DNA from: Escherichia coli
GTDB taxonomy: Bacteria > Pseudomonadota > Gammaproteobacteria > Enterobacterales > Enterobacteriaceae
Direction: 5' to 3' (one strand)
DNA length: 64,000 bases
Assembly: GCF_017348835.2 (NCBI RefSeq)
Contig: NZ_CP071375.1
The notes under the pieces are model-generated. The model was not told where the DNA came from, did no database searches, and worked only from the letters and a program-made list of their open reading frames with translations. A program made the position numbers and the translations under genes. How positions within the stretch are numbered: position 1 is the stretch's first letter; every line of letters starts with the position of its first letter. Positions 22,300-28,138 of this stretch are shown one piece after another.

Positions 22300-22432
22300 C
22301 GCATCTCCTTATTCATCCGCTTTCAGCATAAACGTTATTCAGACGCTGCGCTTTGCTTTCATATTCCGGTTGTCGCGACGGCAACATTTCGCTAAAGTCA
22401 CGCCCCTTCTTCACCGGCATGGGGATTATTTC

Positions 22433-23785
22433 GTGTTTATTGGTTTTGATTACGGTACAGCAAACTGTTCAGTGGCGGTCATGCGTGACGGTAAACCGCA
22501 TTTGCTAAAAATGGAAAACGACAGCACGCTGCTGCCTTCAATGCTTTGCGCGCCAACGCGTGAAGCGGTAAGCGAATGGCTGTACCGCCATCATGATGTT
22601 CCGGCAGACGACGATGAAACGCAGGCGCTGTTGCGTCGGGCGATTCGTTATAACCGCGAAGAAGATATCGATGTTACAGCGAAAAGCGTGCAGTTCGGTC
22701 TTTCCTCACTGGCACAGTACATTGATGATCCAGAAGAAGTGTGGTTTGTGAAATCACCAAAATCGTTCCTCGGTGCCAGCGGCTTAAAACCGCAGCAGGT
22801 AGCGCTGTTTGAGGATCTGGTCTGCGCAATGATGTTGCACATTCGCCAGCAGGCGCAGGCGCAGCTGCCAGAAGCGATTACTCAGGCGGTGATTGGTCGC
22901 CCGATCAACTTCCAGGGGCTGGGCGGCGATGAAGCAAACGCCCAGGCGCAAGGGATTCTGGAACGCGCGGCGAAGCGTGCCGGGTTTAAGGATGTGGTAT
23001 TCCAGTACGAGCCGGTAGCGGCAGGGCTGGATTACGAAGCGACTTTGCAGGAAGAAAAACGGGTGCTGGTGGTGGATATCGGCGGTGGTACGACTGACTG
23101 TTCATTGCTGCTGATGGGGCCGCAGTGGCGTTCGCGTCTCGATCGTGAAGCCAGCCTGCTGGGTCACAGTGGTTGCCGTATTGGCGGTAACGATCTGGAT
23201 ATCGCGCTGGCGTTTAAAAACCTGATGCCGTTACTGGGCATGGGTGGCGAAACCGAAAAAGGCATCGCCCTGCCGATTCTGCCGTGGTGGAATGCGGTTG
23301 CCATCAACGACGTACCTGCGCAGAGTGATTTCTACAGTAGTGCCAACGGTCGTCTGCTTAACGATCTGGTACGCGATGCCCGCGAACCGGAAAAAGTGGC
23401 CCTGCTACAGAAAGTCTGGCGTCAGCGTTTAAGCTATCGCCTGGTGCGTAGCGCAGAAGAGTGCAAAATTGCTCTTTCAAGCGTAGCGGAAACCCGCGCC
23501 TCACTGCCTTTTATCAGCGATGAACTGGCTACGCTGATTAGCCAGCAAGGGCTGGAAAGCGCCCTCAGCCAGCCACTGGCGCGGATTCTGGAACAGGTGC
23601 AACTGGCCCTCGATAACGCCCAGGAAAAACCGGACGTTATCTACCTGACCGGCGGAAGCGCCCGTTCGCCGCTGATTAAAAAAGCGCTGGCAGAACAGTT
23701 GCCGGGCATTCCGATTGCAGGCGGCGATGACTTTGGCTCCGTCACCGCCGGGCTGGCACGCTGGGCGGAAGTGGTGTTTCGTTAA
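22433..23785 (+). CDS. yegD: Hsp70-family (DnaK-like) protein YegD
   Basis: ORF track 471 aa; GTG at 22433 gives the 450-aa product (M)FIGFDYGTANCSVAVMRDGK..., the Hsp70 N-terminal phosphate-1 motif. Confidence 0.85.
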   Translation: MFIGFDYGTANCSVAVMRDGKPHLLKMENDSTLLPSMLCAPTREAVSEWLYRHHDVPADDDETQALLRRAIRYNREEDIDVTAKSVQFGLSSLAQYIDDPEEVWFVKSPKSFLGASGLKPQQVALFEDLVCAMMLHIRQQAQAQLPEAITQAVIGRPINFQGLGGDEANAQAQGILERAAKRAGFKDVVFQYEPVAAGLDYEATLQEEKRVLVVDIGGGTTDCSLLLMGPQWRSRLDREASLLGHSGCRIGGNDLDIALAFKNLMPLLGMGGETEKGIALPILPWWNAVAINDVPAQSDFYSSANGRLLNDLVRDAREPEKVALLQKVWRQRLSYRLVRSAEECKIALSSVAETRASLPFISDELATLISQQGLESALSQPLARILEQVQLALDNAQEKPDVIYLTGGSARSPLIKKALAEQLPGIPIAGGDDFGSVTAGLARWAEVVFR

Positions 23786-23797
23786 TTGAAAAATGGC

Positions 23798-25747
23798 TCA
23801 GCAGCGGCTTAAATCTGCCTGCGCCTGAGCCAGTTTTTCTGCCGCCTGACGTAACGGTTCCATCAACGGCATGGTCCGTGCTGGAGCATGAAGGCGGAAT
23901 CGCTGCAACTCTGTCGCGCCGACAGTCAACGCCGATTCCAGCCGATGTCGTTTGGCGGCCATTTTCGCCATTACCGCTTGTCTGTCTGCAGGCGTTACCG
24001 CTTCGTTCGGCCTGAACACAAAACGGCGTTCACAGCTCGCTTTCCAGTCGATAACCGCCTGGGTCAGATGATCACCAAACCCTTTAACTTGCTTAACCCC
24101 ACGACGGGTAACATCCGCGGCTGTTTCAATACCAAAAGACCGTAACGCCGCTTTACGCGCAGGGCCAACGCCGGGAATAGAGGCAGCATCAATAAAAAAT
24201 CCCTCCAGAAACTTCTGCTTCTGCCGTTCCCTTGCGGTGTCGTGAAGTGCTGCCAGAGCACGTTTTTCTTCTTCCGGTAACCCGAGAATTTCTTCCTTCA
24301 TTTTTTCGAGCATCGTCCGTTTGGCGATAAAACCTTCCAGCCCGCCCAACTGTTGGATCTGGCTGACTAAATGGTCATAGTCCATTTTCGCGCGATTAAA
24401 TGCCTCACGGCGTTGCTGGATTTCTGCTTTATAAGCTTTGCTTGTCAGACTGCCAATAATCCAGATAGCCGCCAGCACAGGAACCAAAATAATATAACGC
24501 GGTTCTGCCTGAAGGCCGCAAAGCAGCAGCGATACCGCTGACAGTGCGATCTCAATCAGGATGATGTATTCGCGCCGTAACAGGCCTGAAGGAAGCGGCC
24601 TGCCAGTCGGTTGGAAATGATCGGGTAATGGCAGTTGCAATGCTGGCGGCGCTACTGACGCCATCACCATCGCCCAGACTTTCGCCAGCACAAAATCACC
24701 GCTGGTGGTAATGACCTCTTCGCCGAGATCAATAAAATAGATAACGCCTTGATTATCCAGCGCACACCACGGGCAGTCAGTCAAATGAGCTGGGTAAACA
24801 TGCATTGCTGAAACGGTACATTTCTTTAACTGTTGGCGTAGAGAGTCCAGTGCCGCTACCCACGCTTTAGCCGTCGGACGCCCCGTTGCCACGCCACTTT
24901 CCGTGAATGCCTGCTGAAACATGGCTTCAACATCACTCGGTAACATCGATAGCGGAATAGATCGTGGCGGCGGTTTTAAACCACGTCGCTGATTATCTGA
25001 CGCGTAGGCATAACGGAAATGGGTAATATCCGTCTCCAGCGCATTACCCGCATCAGAGATAAGCGGCACACCAGAATAAGGATGCCGCCCACCAAACAAG
25101 ACGTGAAAAATCAGCAACGCAAGGCCAAAATTATCGTGATTCGCGGTACGTTCAAAACCGACAAATGATGGCAAGGTTTGTAGCTCTGGCGGCGTAAAAT
25201 GCGACACGCCGACTTCGCATAAATGCAGTGTGCCATTGGCGTTAATCTGAAAGGAGTCACTATCGATCAACACCACTTTGCTGTCGCGACCTACCATAAA
25301 GCTGTTCTGGTTTACGTCCCCCACGACGTGCCCGTGCTCGTGAACCGTAGCAAAAGATGAAGCAATATTGCGCGCAACATAGAGTAGAAAATCCCACGCA
25401 CAATGAGGGTAACGTTGACGACGATGTGCCGGGCTATAGATCATATGAATCGGTTCTTTACCAGAAACTTTTGGCATCATAAAACCGATAACTTTTCCGC
25501 CTCGTCCACCGTGAAGCGTTGCCTGCGGCCAGGCGACATAATTCAACAACTGCGCGTCAGCTGTCGCAGCCATAAAGGCAAGTTTGTCCTGTTTTAAGGC
25601 GGGTGGCGGCGTGTGATAAATCTTGGCGACGCTATCGACAAACTCATTGATATCATAAACCGCGCCTTCGCCACCTTTGCCCAGTTCACGGCCTGGCGTA
25701 ACGCACTCACCAGTAGCAGTATATAAAGTGGGTTTCATGGTAACCAC
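23798..25747 (-). CDS. yegI: Hanks-type Ser/Thr protein kinase-like membrane protein YegI
   Basis: 649-aa ORF; kinase-like N-terminal region, central transmembrane segment(s), C-terminal helix-hairpin-helix-like region (GVGPARKAALRSFGIE). Confidence 0.85.
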   Translation of the reverse strand: MVTMKPTLYTATGECVTPGRELGKGGEGAVYDINEFVDSVAKIYHTPPPALKQDKLAFMAATADAQLLNYVAWPQATLHGGRGGKVIGFMMPKVSGKEPIHMIYSPAHRRQRYPHCAWDFLLYVARNIASSFATVHEHGHVVGDVNQNSFMVGRDSKVVLIDSDSFQINANGTLHLCEVGVSHFTPPELQTLPSFVGFERTANHDNFGLALLIFHVLFGGRHPYSGVPLISDAGNALETDITHFRYAYASDNQRRGLKPPPRSIPLSMLPSDVEAMFQQAFTESGVATGRPTAKAWVAALDSLRQQLKKCTVSAMHVYPAHLTDCPWCALDNQGVIYFIDLGEEVITTSGDFVLAKVWAMVMASVAPPALQLPLPDHFQPTGRPLPSGLLRREYIILIEIALSAVSLLLCGLQAEPRYIILVPVLAAIWIIGSLTSKAYKAEIQQRREAFNRAKMDYDHLVSQIQQLGGLEGFIAKRTMLEKMKEEILGLPEEEKRALAALHDTARERQKQKFLEGFFIDAASIPGVGPARKAALRSFGIETAADVTRRGVKQVKGFGDHLTQAVIDWKASCERRFVFRPNEAVTPADRQAVMAKMAAKRHRLESALTVGATELQRFRLHAPARTMPLMEPLRQAAEKLAQAQADLSRC

Positions 25748-26496
25748 AGCGCCAGTGCCAACGTTTTATCATCATCGGTACGCTCGTTTACCGCTGGGCT
25801 CGACAAAAACTGCTTTAACAATTCAGGTAATAAATCGAGTTGTTCCTGCGTTGCTGCCGCCAGTCCATTGAAAAAAGAGGTAAAGAAAGGCACATGGGGA
25901 GAATTATCCAGCATATTTAACGCCAGTCGCTGGATACCATCCGTAAATGCTGCAACTTTATGCACACGCTCAGTGCTGGTGAAAGTTTCCAGTCTGGAAA
26001 CGGCATCTTCATCGGTAATGAAGTGCGTCATATTGGCATATTCACCCACCATCGGCGTGAGCGGCAGTTCCAGACCACGACCAAAATCCACCACTACACC
26101 GCCGTCGCCAATTTGCATAATCAATGTGCCGTTAGCCGATGAAATCAATCCCAGAAACGTGCAGGCAAAATCGCGAACCGCTAATGCTTTGGCTTCCGCC
26201 TCGGCAAAAAGTCGCTGACGAATGGTCAGCACAATATCCGTGGCGAGGACATCATTAACCCCCAATTCACCGCCCTGTACTTTTTGCATCATAAACGCCA
26301 TCGCTTCATTGACGGCGAGCGTCGCGCCTTCTCCTCCCTGCGAAACGCTACCTGCGCCATCAGCAAGGAACATCACCAGTAATGGTTGCTGGTCGTTTAG
26401 CCAGGCAACCTGCATCTGGCAGGCATCCTGACAAGGTAAATCAGCGCTAATGTGCGACGTTCCAACAGCGGATGCATAAACCAGACGCCAGCTCAC
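25735..26496 (-). CDS. yegK: PP2C-family Ser/Thr protein phosphatase YegK
   Basis: 253-aa [30 protein letters not shown]...FLADGAGS..., PP2C metal-binding motifs; overlaps yegI start by 13 nt. Confidence 0.85.
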
Positions 26497-27152
26497 ACTG
26501 ACGTCCAGCCTTTTGGCGCTTCCAGCACAACTTCCGTTCCCGGCGTGGAGCGGGAAACCGAACGCAGCGAACTGGATAACCAGCTAAACAGTTCACGGAA
26601 TTGTAATCCCTGCAGTGGCAAAGGCTGACGAACGCTGATTTGTGCCAGCGTCTTCATATCCGCCCCCTGAACACCGATGGAAAAGAAGGCAAACTTCTTA
26701 TCTTCTTCCCCCTGAAACACTTTGTTGGCGGCAGCCTGCCACTCATCGGTTGGAGCGCCATCGGTGATCAGGAAAATCCACGGGCGATAATACGAAATAC
26801 CATTTGCGCGGTACTCACGTTTCCTCTCTTCAACCATATCCAGGGCTTTGGTAATGGCGGCCCCCATAGGCGTATCCCCCTGGGCAAACAGGATGGGCGG
26901 GAAAAAGTTAGCGGCGCTGGTAAAGGGTTGTTCCACATGCACCGGGCCGAACGTCACAATGCCGAGTTCCACTCTTTTTAAAGCCAGCGGATCAGCAAGC
27001 AGTTCATCACGAAAGGTAACCAATCCGGCGTTAAGTTCATTAATAGGTCTGCCGCTCATCGAGCCAGAAACATCCAGCAGCAGAATGCAGGGGCAACGTG
27101 GTTCCGGGTTACTGGCAAAATCGCTGGTGGCAAACGTGATTTGTTCGCTCAT
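26493..27152 (-). CDS. yegL: von Willebrand factor A (vWA) domain protein YegL
   Basis: 219-aa ORF with vWA MIDAS motif ([10 protein letters not shown]); 4-nt overlap with yegK. Confidence 0.85.
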
Positions 27153-27333
27153 AAGAAATCCTTTCTTAGAGAATTATTGAGGTCCGGTATCATACCGACT
27201 GCAATAATGAAATAAGAGCAGGCAAAGCAACTTTCAGAATTCGGCCCGGCGGCGCAGAAAATTTTGCTATTCGCCTCGCAAGAACGGAGAGCCGTCGATT
27301 GACACTAAGGGCGGAGTGACATAATTTCAGGAG

Positions 27334-27482
27334 TGAGGGTTAGGGAGAGGTTTCCCCCTCCCCCTGGTGTTCTTAGTAAGCCTGGAAGCTAATCACTAAG
27401 AGTATCAGCAGTATGATGACGTGCTTCATCATAACCCTTTCCTTATTAAAAGCCCTCTTCTCCGGGAGAGGGTTTCCCGTTT
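27334..27482 (+). ncRNA. sibA: Sib antisense sRNA, copy 1 (approximate ends)
   Basis: Plus-strand transcript fully overlapping the ibs ORF; candidate -35 ttgaca at 27299-27304 and terminator hairpin gccctcttctccgggagaggg + T-tract near 27450-27482. Ends inferred, not mapped. Confidence 0.6.
27373..27432 (-). CDS. ibsA: Ibs type I toxin, copy 1 (19 aa, MMKHVIILLILLVISFQAY)
   Basis: Hand translation of the reverse complement of 27373-27432; hydrophobic membrane peptide typical of Ibs toxins. Confidence 0.7.
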   Translation of the reverse strand: MMKHVIILLILLVISFQAY

Positions 27483-27667
27483 CAGCGTCCCGCTGAAATC
27501 GTCGGCTTACCTCCTTTCGCCCTGAATGCAGTCTATCGCTAACGCGTGAACAAAATAGTTCCCTCTGTGATTATTGCGTAACGACTCGCAAAGAATATTT
27601 GCTGGCAGGATCGCAGACTGCAAAGCCTGCAGATTGACAATCTTATCGTGAAGGCATACTTTCAGGA

Positions 27668-27811
27668 GTGAGGGTAGAGTGGGGTTTCCCCCGCCCTGGT
27701 AGTCTTAGTAAGCCGGGAAGCTTATGACTAAGAGCACCACGATGATGATCCACTTCATCATGACCCTTTCCTTATTTAAGGCCCCTTCCTCGGGAGGGGC
27801 TTTCCCGTTTC
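27668..27811 (+). ncRNA. sibB: Sib antisense sRNA, copy 2 (approximate ends)
   Basis: Candidate -35 ttgaca at 27634-27639, -10-like tacttt; terminator ggccccttcctcgggaggggc + T-tract ending about 27811. Confidence 0.6.
27705..27761 (-). CDS. ibsB: Ibs type I toxin, copy 2 (18 aa, MMKWIIIVVLLVISFPAY)
   Basis: Hand translation of the reverse complement of 27705-27761. Confidence 0.65.
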   Translation of the reverse strand: MMKWIIIVVLLVISFPAY

Positions 27812-27994
27812 AGCGTCCCGCTGAAATCGTCGGCTTACCTCCTTTCGCCCTGAATTCAGTCTATCGCTAACGCGTGAACAAAATAGTTTCCTCTGTGATT
27901 ATTGCGTAACGTCTCGCAAAGAATATTTGCTGGCAGGATCGCAGACTGCAAAGCCTGCGGATTGACATTCTGAACGTGAAGGCATACTTTCAGG

Positions 27995-28138
27995 AGTGAG
28001 GGTAGAGCGGGGTTTCCCCCGCCCTGGTAGTCTTAGTATGCTGGGTAGCTAATCACTAAGAGCACCACGATGATGAGTATCTTCATCATGACCCTTTCCT
28101 TATTTATGGCCCCTTCCTCGGGAGGGGCTTTCCCGTTT
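27995..28138 (+). ncRNA. Sib antisense sRNA, copy 3 (extra copy relative to the two I remember at this K-12 locus; approximate ends)
   Basis: Third repeat unit with the same promoter-like ttgaca…tacttt and terminator hairpin ggccccttcctcgggaggggc + T-tract. Confidence 0.55.
28033..28089 (-). CDS. Ibs type I toxin, copy 3 (18 aa, MMKILIIVVLLVISYPAY)
   Basis: Hand translation of the reverse complement of 28033-28089. Confidence 0.6.
   Translation of the reverse strand: MMKILIIVVLLVISYPAY

What the first reader, a model, noticed from the sequence alone, without database searches (positions are those of the whole stretch)
22433..27152. yegL-yegK-yegI operon (vWA protein / PP2C phosphatase / Hanks-type kinase) with divergent Hsp70-like yegD
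Three tightly overlapping minus-strand genes (4-nt and 13-nt overlaps) encode a vWA-domain protein, a PP2C Ser/Thr phosphatase and a membrane-associated eukaryotic-like kinase with a C-terminal HhH-like region. The DnaK-like gene yegD sits immediately adjacent on the opposite strand, and the Sib/Ibs toxin repeats flank the other side. A vWA + PP2C + STK triad resembles architectures that have been proposed as conflict or signalling systems, and its physiological role in E. coli is, as far as I know, poorly defined. This is the best candidate in the window for an under-characterised multi-component system.
Basis: inference. Interest (0 to 1): 0.45.

Follow-up and report, generated by a model that had tools for sequence, protein, structure and literature searches.

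The report
E. coli yegL-pphC-yegI TerY-P-type triad
This is the annotated E. coli yegL-pphC-yegI operon, a self-contained three-gene kinase/phosphatase switch of the 'TerY-P triad' kind that moves between hundreds of bacterial and archaeal species and often sits among anti-phage genes; its enzymes are already characterised, its biological role is still unknown, and the neighbouring yegD is not part of it.

Summary
The genes are real and at the stated coordinates, in an E. coli chromosome. They are yegL (vWA, intact MIDAS), pphC/yegK (PP2C) and yegI (membrane Ser/Thr kinase), on the minus strand, with GTGA and ATGA stop/start overlaps.

Three corrections:
- yegD is convergent with yegI, not divergent.
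- The '13-nt overlap' depends on an upstream GTG; the RefSeq ATG gives 4 nt.
- Pfam does not recognise YegI as a kinase. Structure prediction, family members and published biochemistry do.

All three proteins are homologous to the matching parts of the TerY-P triad on IncHI2 tellurite-resistance plasmids (profile E 1e-16 to 1e-25). They are barely related to the phage-tested 'TerY-P' system of Gao et al. PADLOC and NCBIfam miss this subtype.

The cassette keeps its order vWA, PP2C, kinase in 85 of 89 sampled loci. At least 559 species carry it, archaea included. No fourth gene is conserved, and yegD is adjacent only in Escherichia. About 7 of 12 annotated neighbourhoods hold known defence genes.

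YegI is a kinase, a CHCC zinc knuckle, a transmembrane hairpin and a long coiled-coil stalk tipped by an (HhH)2 domain.

Best reading: a phospho-switch conflict or stress module, possibly sensing DNA at the membrane. The function is inferred, not shown. The locus and its enzymes are already published, so interest is moderate.

The parts
26493..27152 (-). yegL: 219-aa stand-alone TerY-like vWA protein with a complete MIDAS site (D27, S29, S31, T94, D131). First gene of the cassette.
   Evidence: ORF and RefSeq annotation. Pfam VWA 1.6e-9. 29% identity to IncHI2 TerY-C protein, E 1e-21. Family profile vs TerY1/TerY2/TerY-C 99.3-99.7%, E 5e-20 to 3e-25. MIDAS residues 97-100% conserved in 86 sequences. 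Within E. coli, dN/dS 0.03-0.08.
25735..26496 (-). pphC (yegK): 253-aa PP2C Ser/Thr phosphatase. GTG start overlaps the yegL stop (GTGA).
   Evidence: Pfam PP2C_2 1.7e-47. Family profile vs IncHI2 TerY-P phosphatase 98.7%, E 1.8e-16. Acidic metal ligands D24, D46, D131, D186, D242/D243 conserved. Junction sequence. Published activity and dephosphorylation of YegI (10.1101/303594).
23798..25738 (-). yegI: 646-aa inner-membrane Ser/Thr kinase. ATG overlaps the pphC stop (ATGA).
   Evidence: AlphaFold2 with 68 homologues, pLDDT 93.1, pTM 0.80. Family of 9664 cluster representatives. Published kinase activity and two-pass topology (10.1101/819920).
24830..25738 (-). YegI residues 1-303: Hanks-type kinase domain with K39, D141-x-N143, and a D159-S-D161-S162 loop in place of DFG.
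   Evidence: Foldseek vs PDB: PknB, Aurora B, Src and others, TM (target) 0.65-0.73. Invariant residues. 23 of 28 family members hit Pfam Pkinase. hhalign to the IncHI2 TerY-P kinase 99%, E 6.6e-18.
24764..24820 (-). YegI residues 307-325: invariant C307-H313-C322-C325 (CPWC) zinc knuckle/ribbon directly after the kinase domain.
   Evidence: Invariant in 68 and in 28 sequences. Aligns with the C...CPYC motif of the ter-plasmid TerY-P kinase. Metal binding is inferred.
24434..24574 (-). YegI residues about 389-435: transmembrane hairpin (two helices).
   Evidence: Hydrophobicity scan. Helices 389-408 and 415 onward in the model. PhoA-LacZ topology in 10.1101/819920.
23801..24433 (-). YegI residues 436-646: cytoplasmic antiparallel coiled-coil stalk. 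The (HhH)2 domain (residues about 518-571, nt 24026-24187) sits at its tip.

Best explanation
The locus is the Escherichia copy of a TerY-P-type 'phosphorylation triad'. It is a self-contained, horizontally spread three-gene cassette: TerY-like vWA, then PP2C, then kinase.

**Shown by others**
- YegI is an active, Mn2+-preferring Ser/Thr kinase that autophosphorylates its activation loop.
- It sits in the inner membrane with both ends in the cytoplasm.
- PphC is an active PP2C that dephosphorylates YegI and is phosphorylated by it.
- Overproducing YegI or YegL raises DNA damage.

**Shown here**
- The three genes are inherited as one unit across phyla, with no conserved fourth partner.
- Each is homologous to its counterpart in the ter-plasmid TerY-P triad.
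- YegL keeps a full MIDAS site.
- YegI carries an invariant zinc knuckle and a long coiled-coil stalk ending in an (HhH)2 domain.
- The cassette often lies among defence genes and on mobile elements.

**Inferred mechanism**
- YegI dimers are held off by PphC.
- A trigger at the cytoplasmic face of the membrane shifts the balance toward trans-autophosphorylation. My best guess for the trigger is DNA engaged by the HhH tip, for example incoming phage or plasmid DNA, or damaged or mislocalised DNA.
- The active kinase phosphorylates YegL and/or other host or invader proteins.
- YegL uses its MIDAS site to bind an acidic or phosphorylated segment, acting as the phospho-dependent adaptor.
- PphC resets the switch.
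- The most likely biological role is a conflict (anti-phage or anti-mobile-DNA) or DNA-stress module in which the kinase itself is the effector.
For: **Homology to the ter-plasmid triad (L092)**
- vWA: pairwise E 1e-21; profile 99.3-99.7%.
- PP2C: 98.7%, E 1.8e-16.
- Kinase plus zinc ribbon: 99%, E 6.6e-18.
- Same gene order.

**Cassette behaviour**
- At least 559 species carry a relative, from Proteobacteria to Actinobacteria, Clostridiales and Methanoregula.
- vWA-PP2C-kinase lie on one strand in 85 of 89 loci, and no other family recurs in more than 11 loci.
- The cassette is on conjugative plasmids and megaplasmids and inside a Tn7-like element.

**Defence-rich neighbourhoods**
- BrxR, JetB, ScoMcrA, SLFN helicase.
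- AbiH, KAP NTPase.
- GmrSD and type I RM.
- Type I RM and Mrr.
- Kiwa, Nmad2/3, MmeI-like.
- Cap4 nuclease, HEPN-RES.
- ScoMcrA, PLD.

**Functional constraint**
- dN/dS is 0.03-0.23 within E. coli.
- Catalytic, MIDAS and zinc residues are conserved.

**Structure**
-.

**Literature**
- Enzymology and topology.
- DNA damage on overproduction of YegI and YegL.
- TerY-P-type triads act against T7-like phages.
Against: - No phage, plasmid or stress phenotype is known for this triad.
- In E. coli it is a core locus, in 5402 of 5426 complete genomes. Its G+C content is ordinary. It lies between alkA/yegD and Sib/Ibs-mdtABCD, not in a defence island.
- Transcription was not detected under any tested condition.
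- The phage-validated TerY-P of E. coli G3/10 is only remotely related. vWA E 1e-6; kinase core E 6e-6 at 85%; PP2C undetectable.
- PADLOC and NCBIfam TerY-P models do not match.
- There is no obvious effector domain.
- Some neighbourhoods are plain housekeeping or plasmid maintenance genes.
- The defence-context count has no matched control.
- DNA binding by the HhH tip, YegL as substrate or adaptor, and zinc binding are all predictions.
Confidence: 0.5

Rival explanations
1. An ordinary chromosomal signalling pair of E. coli. YegI/PphC regulate a housekeeping process (envelope, stationary phase, DNA repair or metabolism) by Ser/Thr phosphorylation of host proteins, YegL acts as a scaffold, and there is no role in conflict with phages or plasmids.
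For: - Present in 99.6% of complete E. coli genomes at one fixed locus, and in other Escherichia species.
- Ordinary G+C and purifying selection.
- No defence genes next to it in the window.
- This is the framing used in the enzymology papers.
- An analogous vWA-kinase-FHA-PP2C operon in Deinococcus is discussed as a DNA-damage signalling module.
Against: - Outside Escherichia the cassette is patchy, mobile and plasmid- or transposon-borne, at 35-63% identity across phyla and archaea. A lineage-specific housekeeping regulator would not look like this.
- Neighbourhoods are rich in defence genes.
- Many independently disrupted yegI alleles exist in E. coli, and K-12 carries the yegJ insertion.
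- No expression was seen in standard growth.
Confidence: 0.22
2. A metal or xenobiotic (tellurite-type) stress sensor, as first proposed for TerY-P triads. The MIDAS site of YegL senses a metal or oxyanion-related signal, and the kinase/phosphatase pair relays it.
For: - The closest characterised relatives of all three proteins are the triad next to terW and TerY genes on IncHI2 tellurite-resistance plasmids.
- The published hypothesis of a metal-sensing phosphorylation switch is quoted in PMC11090510 and PMC4978471.
Against: - No ter genes are in the window.
- None appeared in the Pfam- or record-annotated neighbourhoods of this subtype that I read. The other sampled loci were only clustered, not annotated.
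- The kinase has a DNA-binding-type tip rather than a metal-binding TerY-C domain.
Confidence: 0.1
3. A silenced, decaying remnant in E. coli. The cassette was acquired by the Escherichia ancestor and is no longer used.
For: - No transcription was detected.
- The operon is split by yegJ in K-12 and related strains.
- Many truncated, internally deleted or fused yegI alleles sit on long contigs.
- Recurrent yegI mutations in the long-term evolution experiment are cited in 10.1101/303594.
Against: - All three genes are intact in the four strains compared, with dN/dS of 0.03-0.23 after up to 0.3 synonymous substitutions per site.
- Every family-invariant catalytic, MIDAS and zinc residue is present.
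- The proteins are enzymatically active.
Confidence: 0.1
4. A four-part system in which the Hsp70/actin-like YegD works with the triad.
For: - Adjacent in all Escherichia loci, 12 nt apart.
- yegD rises when the K-12-specific YegJ is overexpressed.
- yegD-yegI is listed as an overlapping convergent transcript pair.
- Hsp70 proteins occur in other predicted conflict systems.
Against: - YegD homologues are found next to the cassette only in the 3 Escherichia loci of the 89 clustered loci.
- The Klebsiella copy lies at another locus without yegD.
- The orientation is convergent, so there is no shared promoter.
- yegD shows a normal core-gene pattern.
Confidence: 0.04

Closest known systems
TerY-P (TerY-phosphorylation) triad of ter-operon regions, e.g. 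IncHI2 plasmids (Anantharaman, Iyer and Aravind 2012, as summarised in PMC11090510 and PMC4978471; the original paper was not readable here)
   Same: Same three components in the same order, each detectably homologous. TerY-like vWA with MIDAS (E 1e-21 pairwise). PP2C (profile E 1.8e-16). Kinase followed by a Cys/His zinc ribbon with the CPxC motif (profile E 6.6e-18).
   Different: - A single short vWA gene instead of three TerY paralogues, and no TerY-C domain.
- PP2C of 253 aa instead of 545 aa.
- The kinase is extended by a transmembrane hairpin, a coiled-coil stalk and (HhH)2.
- No ter genes nearby.
- Stand-alone and chromosomal in E. coli.
TerY-P anti-phage system of Gao et al. 2020 (homologue from E. 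coli G3/10, locus L096; RefSeq 'TerY-P anti-phage system' proteins)
   Same: Same logic and gene order (vWA, PP2C-type phosphatase, Ser/Thr kinase with a presumed nucleic-acid-binding C-terminus). It also sits next to a type I RM system. Reported active against T7-like phages.
   Different: - Only remote sequence relationship: vWA E 1e-6; kinase core 85%, E 6e-6; phosphatase not detectably related.
- The kinase is said to carry an OB fold rather than a TM/coiled-coil/HhH module.
- Rare accessory system, in 4 of 5426 E. coli genomes, versus core.
- PADLOC and NCBIfam models for it do not match YegL, PphC or YegI.
P. aeruginosa 'TerY-P variant' (Costa et al. 2024, PMC10889362)
   Same: A three-gene vWA/PP2C/kinase set missed by PADLOC and DefenseFinder. 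It protects against Autographiviridae with most cells surviving.
   Different: Primer searches found nothing, and no P. aeruginosa protein appeared among close YegI relatives. Whether it is the YegLKI subtype is unknown.
TerY-P modules embedded in Type II / III-A CoCoNuT (McrBC-related) systems (PMC11090510)
   Same: vWA + PP2C + kinase fused to a C-terminal zinc ribbon, interpreted as a defensive add-on cassette.
   Different: Those are integrated into large McrBC/helicase/HEPN operons. Here the triad stands alone and the kinase has extra membrane and HhH parts.
Hanks-type kinase / PP2C pairs such as PknB-PstP and PrkC-PrpC
   Same: Kinase fold, activation-loop autophosphorylation, a cognate PP2C in the same operon that dephosphorylates the kinase.
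   Different: - No extracytoplasmic sensor domain; both termini are cytoplasmic.
- DSD instead of DFG, and VGD..Q.S instead of HRD..P.N.
- An obligatory vWA partner and a DNA-binding-type tip.
Deinococcus DRA0331-DRA0334 operon (vWA, STPK, FHA, PP2C; 10.64898/2026.01.23.701218)
   Same: A vWA protein encoded with a membrane Ser/Thr kinase and a PP2C that dephosphorylates it. Discussed in the context of DNA-damage signalling.
   Different: Different order, an extra FHA protein, and a KI-FHA fused to the phosphatase. Homology to the YegLKI proteins was not tested.

Membership tests
TerY-P triad (ter-plasmid archetype) | Three adjacent same-strand genes: TerY-like vWA, PP2C phosphatase, Ser/Thr kinase | tested here: met
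   yegL, pphC and yegI lie on the minus strand with 4-nt overlaps. Same order as in L092.
TerY-P triad (ter-plasmid archetype) | vWA component homologous to TerY, with a metal-ion-dependent adhesion site | tested here: met
   tblastn hits TerY genes on 2331 plasmids. Pairwise E 1e-21. Profile 99.3-99.7%. D-x-S-x-S, T and D conserved 97-100%.
TerY-P triad (ter-plasmid archetype) | Phosphatase homologous to the triad's PP2C, with catalytic acidic residues | tested here: met
   Pairwise E 9e-6. Profile 98.7%, E 1.8e-16. Pfam PP2C_2 1.7e-47. Conserved Asp residues.
TerY-P triad (ter-plasmid archetype) | Kinase homologous to the triad's kinase, including the C-terminal zinc ribbon | tested here: met
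   hhalign 99%, E 6.6e-18 over 318 columns reaching the CPWC/CPYC motif. C307, H313, C322 and C325 invariant.
TerY-P triad (ter-plasmid archetype) | The three genes are co-inherited as a unit | tested here: met
   All three present in order in 85 of 89 loci from many phyla.
TerY-P triad (ter-plasmid archetype) | Linkage to tellurite-resistance (ter) genes | tested here: not met
   No ter genes in the window. None in the Pfam- or record-annotated neighbourhoods of this subtype that I read. Per, stand-alone triads are accepted members, so this is not disqualifying.
Gao-type TerY-P anti-phage system | Match to the curated models used to call it (PADLOC, NCBIfam) | tested here: not met
   PADLOC: only YegL vs TerY at E 0.013. 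NCBIfam: no TerY-P model hit. Control: PADLOC also misses the IncHI2 triad.
Gao-type TerY-P anti-phage system | Sequence homology of all three proteins to the validated system | tested here: not met
   Against E. coli G3/10 proteins: vWA 91%, E 1e-6; kinase core 85%, E 6e-6; phosphatase 0.1%.
Gao-type TerY-P anti-phage system | Kinase with a C-terminal OB fold | tested here: not met
   The C-terminus is a TM hairpin, coiled coil and (HhH)2.
Gao-type TerY-P anti-phage system | Protection against phage | not testable with these tools
   Needs plaque assays. No such data for yegLKI in the papers found.
Hanks-type (eukaryote-like) Ser/Thr kinases | Bilobed kinase fold with catalytic Lys and Asp | tested here: met
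   Foldseek to PknB and many kinases. K39, D141, N143 and D159/D161 invariant. Activity published.
Hanks-type (eukaryote-like) Ser/Thr kinases | Recognised by Pfam Pkinase and carrying the HRD and DFG motifs | tested here: inconclusive
   No Pkinase hit for E. coli YegI, but 23 of 28 relatives hit it. HRD is replaced by VGD and DFG by DSD.
Hsp70-coupled conflict systems (yegD as a component) | Conserved co-occurrence of the Hsp70-like gene with the other components | tested here: not met
   YegD homologues are adjacent only in 3 Escherichia loci of 89. Convergent orientation.

The most novel reading that the evidence does not exclude
The silent, core-genome yegL-pphC-yegI cassette is a functional anti-phage or anti-plasmid system of a TerY-P subtype that current defence-finding tools miss. 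In this reading a membrane-anchored kinase uses a coiled-coil stalk tipped with (HhH)2 to detect DNA at the inner membrane and then acts as its own effector. That would add a defence system to nearly every E. coli and to at least 559 other species, including methanogenic archaea.
Probability: 0.3. Interest if true: 0.65.

Novelty: new member of a known kind. Interest (0 to 1): 0.4.

Why it matters
If the triad is a conflict module, almost every E. coli strain carries an unrecognised one. It belongs to a family with thousands of sequence clusters, across bacteria and archaea, that PADLOC and NCBIfam do not flag. It would also be a workable model for how TerY-P triads function, which is unknown even for the phage-validated versions. 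The kinase and phosphatase are already purified and assayable, and the structural predictions give clear mutants to test: MIDAS, zinc knuckle, HhH tip.

If it is instead a housekeeping switch, it is still one of only about eight known Ser/Thr/Tyr kinases in E. coli, and it has no known substrate.

For genome annotation the practical points are two. yegD should not be grouped with the operon. The label 'helix-hairpin-helix domain-containing protein' hides a kinase.

Tried and rejected
- **PADLOC and NCBIfam scans** of the three proteins found no TerY-P match. I do not count this as evidence against the family, because PADLOC also fails on the archetypal IncHI2 triad.
- **Sequence search of PDB** found no relative with a solved structure.
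- **Two key papers could not be read.** Anantharaman et al. 2012 and Gao et al. 2020 are not held. What I say about them comes from papers that cite them.
- **The P. aeruginosa TerY-P variant of Costa et al. could not be tied to this subtype.** Primers gave no match in fetched loci or in the metagenome scan. No P. aeruginosa proteins appeared near a Pseudomonas YegI homologue.
- **Conserved fourth gene.** Clustering of all ORFs in 89 loci gave only clade-limited neighbours: a TetR-like gene in Competibacteraceae, a secreted Cys-rich protein in Burkholderia, and a 69-aa ORF plus SNase in Burkholderiales.
- **SNase or small-ORF remnant in the window.** None.
- **Promoter and terminator scans** of 22300-27450 found no more sites than in shuffled sequence and no promoter upstream of yegL. 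They say nothing about co-transcription.
- **Base composition.** No foreign signature.
- **Phage genomes.** No full-length copy in 50,697 records.
- **Positive selection as a sign of an arms race.** Gene-wide dN/dS is well below 1. Site-level tests were not done.

Full report
**1. What is there**

The window is E. coli chromosome. An 8-kb stretch around the finding is 100% identical to strain PE164. RefSeq annotation of that stretch gives the following genes:

| Gene | Window coordinates | Strand |
|---|---|---|
| dgcE | – | – |
| alkA | – | – |
| yegD | 22433-23785 | + |
| yegI | 23798-25738 | - |
| pphC (formerly yegK) | 25735-26496 | - |
| yegL | 26493-27152 | - |
| three Ibs toxin genes | – | – |
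| mdtA, mdtB | – | – |

- The ORF list agrees.
- The sequence shows yegL ending ...TCA GTG TGA, with pphC starting at that GTG (GTGA).
- It shows pphC ending ...CCA TGA, with yegI starting at that ATG (ATGA).
- Homologues start at the position of the ATG.
- yegD and yegI are tail to tail, with 12 nt between their stop codons. 'Divergent' is wrong.
- Rfam finds three Sib RNAs at 27299-28104.
- The K-12-specific yegJ insertion between pphC and yegI is absent here.

**2. Domain checks**

- PphC matches Pfam PP2C_2 at 1.7e-47.
- YegL matches VWA at 1.6e-9.
- YegI gets no Pkinase hit, only HHH_5 at 0.0083.

The kinase assignment is nevertheless sound, on four grounds:
- An AlphaFold2 model built on 68 homologues has pLDDT 93 and pTM 0.80.
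- Its N-terminal 300 residues superpose on PknB, Aurora B, Src and others, with TM-scores of 0.65-0.73 normalised to the target.
- 23 of 28 divergent family members do hit Pkinase.
- K39, D141, N143, D159, D161 and S162 are invariant.

Rajagopalan and Dworkin reported the following:
- YegI is an active, Mn2+-preferring Ser/Thr kinase with DSD in place of DFG.
- It autophosphorylates on activation-loop serines.
- PphC is an active PP2C that dephosphorylates YegI.
- They could not detect transcription of the locus, and they name no substrate or function.

**3. Anatomy of YegI beyond the kinase**

- Right after the kinase domain lie four invariant residues, C307, H313, C322 and C325 (motif CPWC). 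I read them as a zinc knuckle.
- Then comes a poorly conserved linker, followed by two hydrophobic helices at about 389-435.
- Residues 436-646 were modelled alone at pLDDT 96. They form a long antiparallel coiled coil whose distal end carries two helix-hairpin-helix motifs, with conserved GIGP...ETAAD and G-F-G.
- The picture is a stalk rooted in the membrane, projecting into the cytoplasm, with a DNA-binding-type domain at its tip. DNA binding itself is a prediction.

**4. The other two proteins**

- In 86 aligned sequences the MIDAS residues of YegL (D27, S29, S31, T94, D131) are 97-100% conserved. The protein as a whole is strikingly conserved.
- The acidic metal ligands of PphC are likewise conserved.

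**5. How the cassette behaves in evolution**

- YegI has 9664 cluster representatives at E <= 0.001 and 3238 at E <= 1e-30. The 646-residue architecture is kept down to 35% identity.
- A scan of one genome per species found at least 559 species with a relative. They include Beta-, Gamma- and Alphaproteobacteria, Actinobacteria, Planctomycetes, Acidobacteria, Chlorobi, Clostridiales, Synergistaceae and Methanoregula archaea.
- I clustered all ORFs of 89 loci. The kinase, PP2C and vWA families were present on one strand in that order in 85 loci. No other family occurred in more than 11 loci.
- YegD homologues were adjacent only in the three Escherichia loci. The Klebsiella copy sits at a different locus.
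- So the unit is three genes, and yegD is a local neighbour. In K-12 the pair yegD-yegI is listed among overlapping convergent transcripts, which could matter for local expression but not for the system's composition.

**6. Neighbourhoods**

| Locus | Organism or replicon | Neighbouring genes |
|---|---|---|
| L002 | Piscinibacter | SLFN-type helicase, MazG-like, ScoMcrA, SNase, BrxR, JetB |
| L003 | Chromobacterium | AbiH, KAP NTPase, protease-AAA pair, inside a Tn7-like element |
| L004 | Klebsiella | GmrSD, SymE and a type I RM system within 10 kb |
| L008 | metagenome contig | type I RM and Mrr |
| L099 | Pseudomonas citronellolis | Kiwa, a 1708-aa helicase, Nmad2/3, an MmeI-like enzyme |
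| L100 | Massilia | Cap4 nuclease, HEPN-RES, integrase |
| L101 | Noviherbaspirillum | ScoMcrA, PLD nuclease, radical-SAM pair |
| L009-L011, L102, L098 | metagenome contigs, Dyella, Rhizobium plasmid | toxins or unknowns |
| L006 | metagenome contig | housekeeping genes |
| L097 | P. putida megaplasmid | UmuDC-like genes |

- That makes about 7 of 12 neighbourhoods with recognised defence genes. This is suggestive, but I had no matched control.
- The cassette is on plasmids: 37 full-length hits, mostly conjugative.
- It is not in phage genomes.

**7. Status in E. coli**

- The triad is in 5402 of 5426 complete genomes.
- Comparing four strains, all three genes are intact and under purifying selection. 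dN/dS is 0.03-0.08 for yegL, 0.12-0.23 for pphC and about 0.15 for yegI.
- pphC falls into two deep allele classes, with dS of 0.30 against 0.05-0.19 in flanking genes.
- The protein database also holds many independently damaged yegI alleles on long contigs: in-frame deletions, truncations and a pphC-yegI fusion.
- This fits the recurrent yegI mutations in the long-term evolution experiment mentioned.

**8. Comparison with known systems**

*Ter-plasmid triad.*
- tblastn with YegL hits the three TerY genes of 2331 ter-carrying plasmids.
- On an IncHI2 plasmid the order is TerY, TerY, TerY-C protein, PP2C, kinase.
- YegL aligns to the TerY-C protein at 29% identity, E 1e-21.
- The YegL family profile matches TerY1, TerY2 and TerY-C at 99.3-99.7%.
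- The PphC profile matches that PP2C at 98.7%, E 1.8e-16.
- The YegI profile matches that kinase at 99%, E 6.6e-18, through to the CPxC zinc motif.
- This is the TerY-P triad as described, and I count the E. coli operon as a member.

*Phage-tested TerY-P.*
- I recovered the version cloned from E. coli G3/10 through a supplementary table.
- It is only remotely similar: vWA E 1e-6, kinase core E 6e-6 at 85%, phosphatase not detectable.
- Its kinase is reported to end in an OB fold.
- So the phage data of Gao et al. and of Costa et al. support the kind of system, not this subtype directly.
- The two enzymology papers on PphC and YegI mention neither TerY, tellurite, phage nor the HhH domain.

**9. 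Mechanism**

- *Shown:* an active kinase and its cognate phosphatase, the membrane topology, and DNA damage on overproduction of YegI and YegL.
- *Shown here:* obligate three-gene inheritance, intact MIDAS, the zinc knuckle, the stalk with an HhH tip, and defence-rich and mobile contexts.
- *Inferred:* PphC keeps YegI dephosphorylated. A signal at the inner face of the membrane, most plausibly DNA held by the HhH tip, favours trans-autophosphorylation of stalk-mediated dimers. The kinase then phosphorylates YegL and other proteins. YegL binds an acidic or phosphorylated segment through MIDAS and acts as adaptor. PphC resets the switch.
- With no effector domain in the cassette, the kinase would be the effector.

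Confidence by level:

| Claim | Confidence |
|---|---|
| TerY-P family assignment | about 0.9 |
| Conflict or DNA-stress role | about 0.5 |
| DNA-sensing step | about 0.25 |

**10. Verdict**

- The locus and its enzymes are already published and the kind of system is known. What is added here:
  - the family assignment by direct homology;
  - the exclusion of yegD;
  - the full architecture of YegI;
  - the breadth and mobility of the cassette;
  - the point that current defence-finding models miss this subtype.
- Interest is moderate.

Noticed in passing
L103 4776-5657 (Agrobacterium plasmid pAt1D1460); also L098 10668-14964, L009 19574-21941, L101 3660-6223: A stand-alone 293-aa homologue of YegI's C-terminal TM + coiled-coil + (HhH)2 module (29% identity to YegI 428-623, E 1e-20) is encoded directly after hxsB-hxsC-hxsA. 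That is the His-Xaa-Ser radical-SAM system. It occurs on about 25 Agrobacterium plasmids and is followed by SH3, CHAT-protease and AAA genes. Hxs or Hxs-like radical-SAM pairs also lie near YegLKI-type triads in a Rhizobium plasmid and two other contexts.
   Followed up: partly
proteins P0019-P0044 (E. coli yegI alleles); window 23798-25738 is intact: Many independently disrupted yegI alleles exist in E. coli assemblies, several on contigs of 70-550 kb. They include in-frame deletions of residues 356-420, 403-493, 184-277 and 305-456; N-terminal losses to residue 139, 189 or 208; C-terminal truncations at 402-571; and one pphC-yegI fusion. Some short-contig cases may be assembly artefacts.
   Followed up: partly
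window 25735-26496 (pphC) compared with L093, L094, L095: pphC has two deep allele classes within E. coli. Synonymous divergence is about 0.30, against 0.05-0.19 in flanking genes, and dN/dS is still 0.12-0.23. This suggests old allelic lineages or recombination from outside.
   Followed up: partly
L093 8647-9108 (K-12), absent from window between 25738 and 25735: K-12 and a subset of other strains carry a roughly 735-bp insertion with the opposite-strand gene yegJ between pphC and yegI, breaking the translational coupling. A 2026 paper reports that YegJ binds RNase E and that its overexpression induces yegD.
   Followed up: no
window 23786-23797: yegD and yegI are convergent, with only 12 nt between their stop codons. 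The pair is listed among overlapping convergent transcripts ('excludons') in K-12, so transcription of one may interfere with the other.
   Followed up: no
window 27299-28104: There are three Sib RNA / Ibs toxin copies here. K-12 and strain S103EC have two, and RM9131 has three. The repeat number varies between strains.
   Followed up: no
L002 7719-8474; L009 7700-8501; L008 8075-8284; L015, L017, L027: In Burkholderiales relatives, which are among the closer non-Escherichia relatives of the E. coli cassette, a highly conserved 69-70-aa ORF (84-87% identical between loci) sits just upstream of the vWA gene on the same strand. A staphylococcal-nuclease-like gene often accompanies it. There is no trace of either in the window.
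   Followed up: partly
L092 4814-6022; L009 3962-5182; L101 7294-8376; L044, L049, L081: DUF4236 proteins recur near triads of this subtype, and one also lies next to terW and the TerY genes on the IncHI2 plasmid.
   Followed up: no
L096 7001-10260 (E. coli G3/10): The Gao-type TerY-P anti-phage system is present in only 4 of 5426 complete E. coli genomes. It lies beside an IS5-family element and a type I RM system. Those strains therefore carry two unrelated-looking vWA/PP2C/kinase triads.
   Followed up: partly
L003 16276-21870: The Chromobacterium copy of the cassette lies with AbiH and a KAP NTPase next to TnsA/TnsB/TniB/TniQ-like genes. It is probably cargo of a Tn7-like transposon.
   Followed up: no
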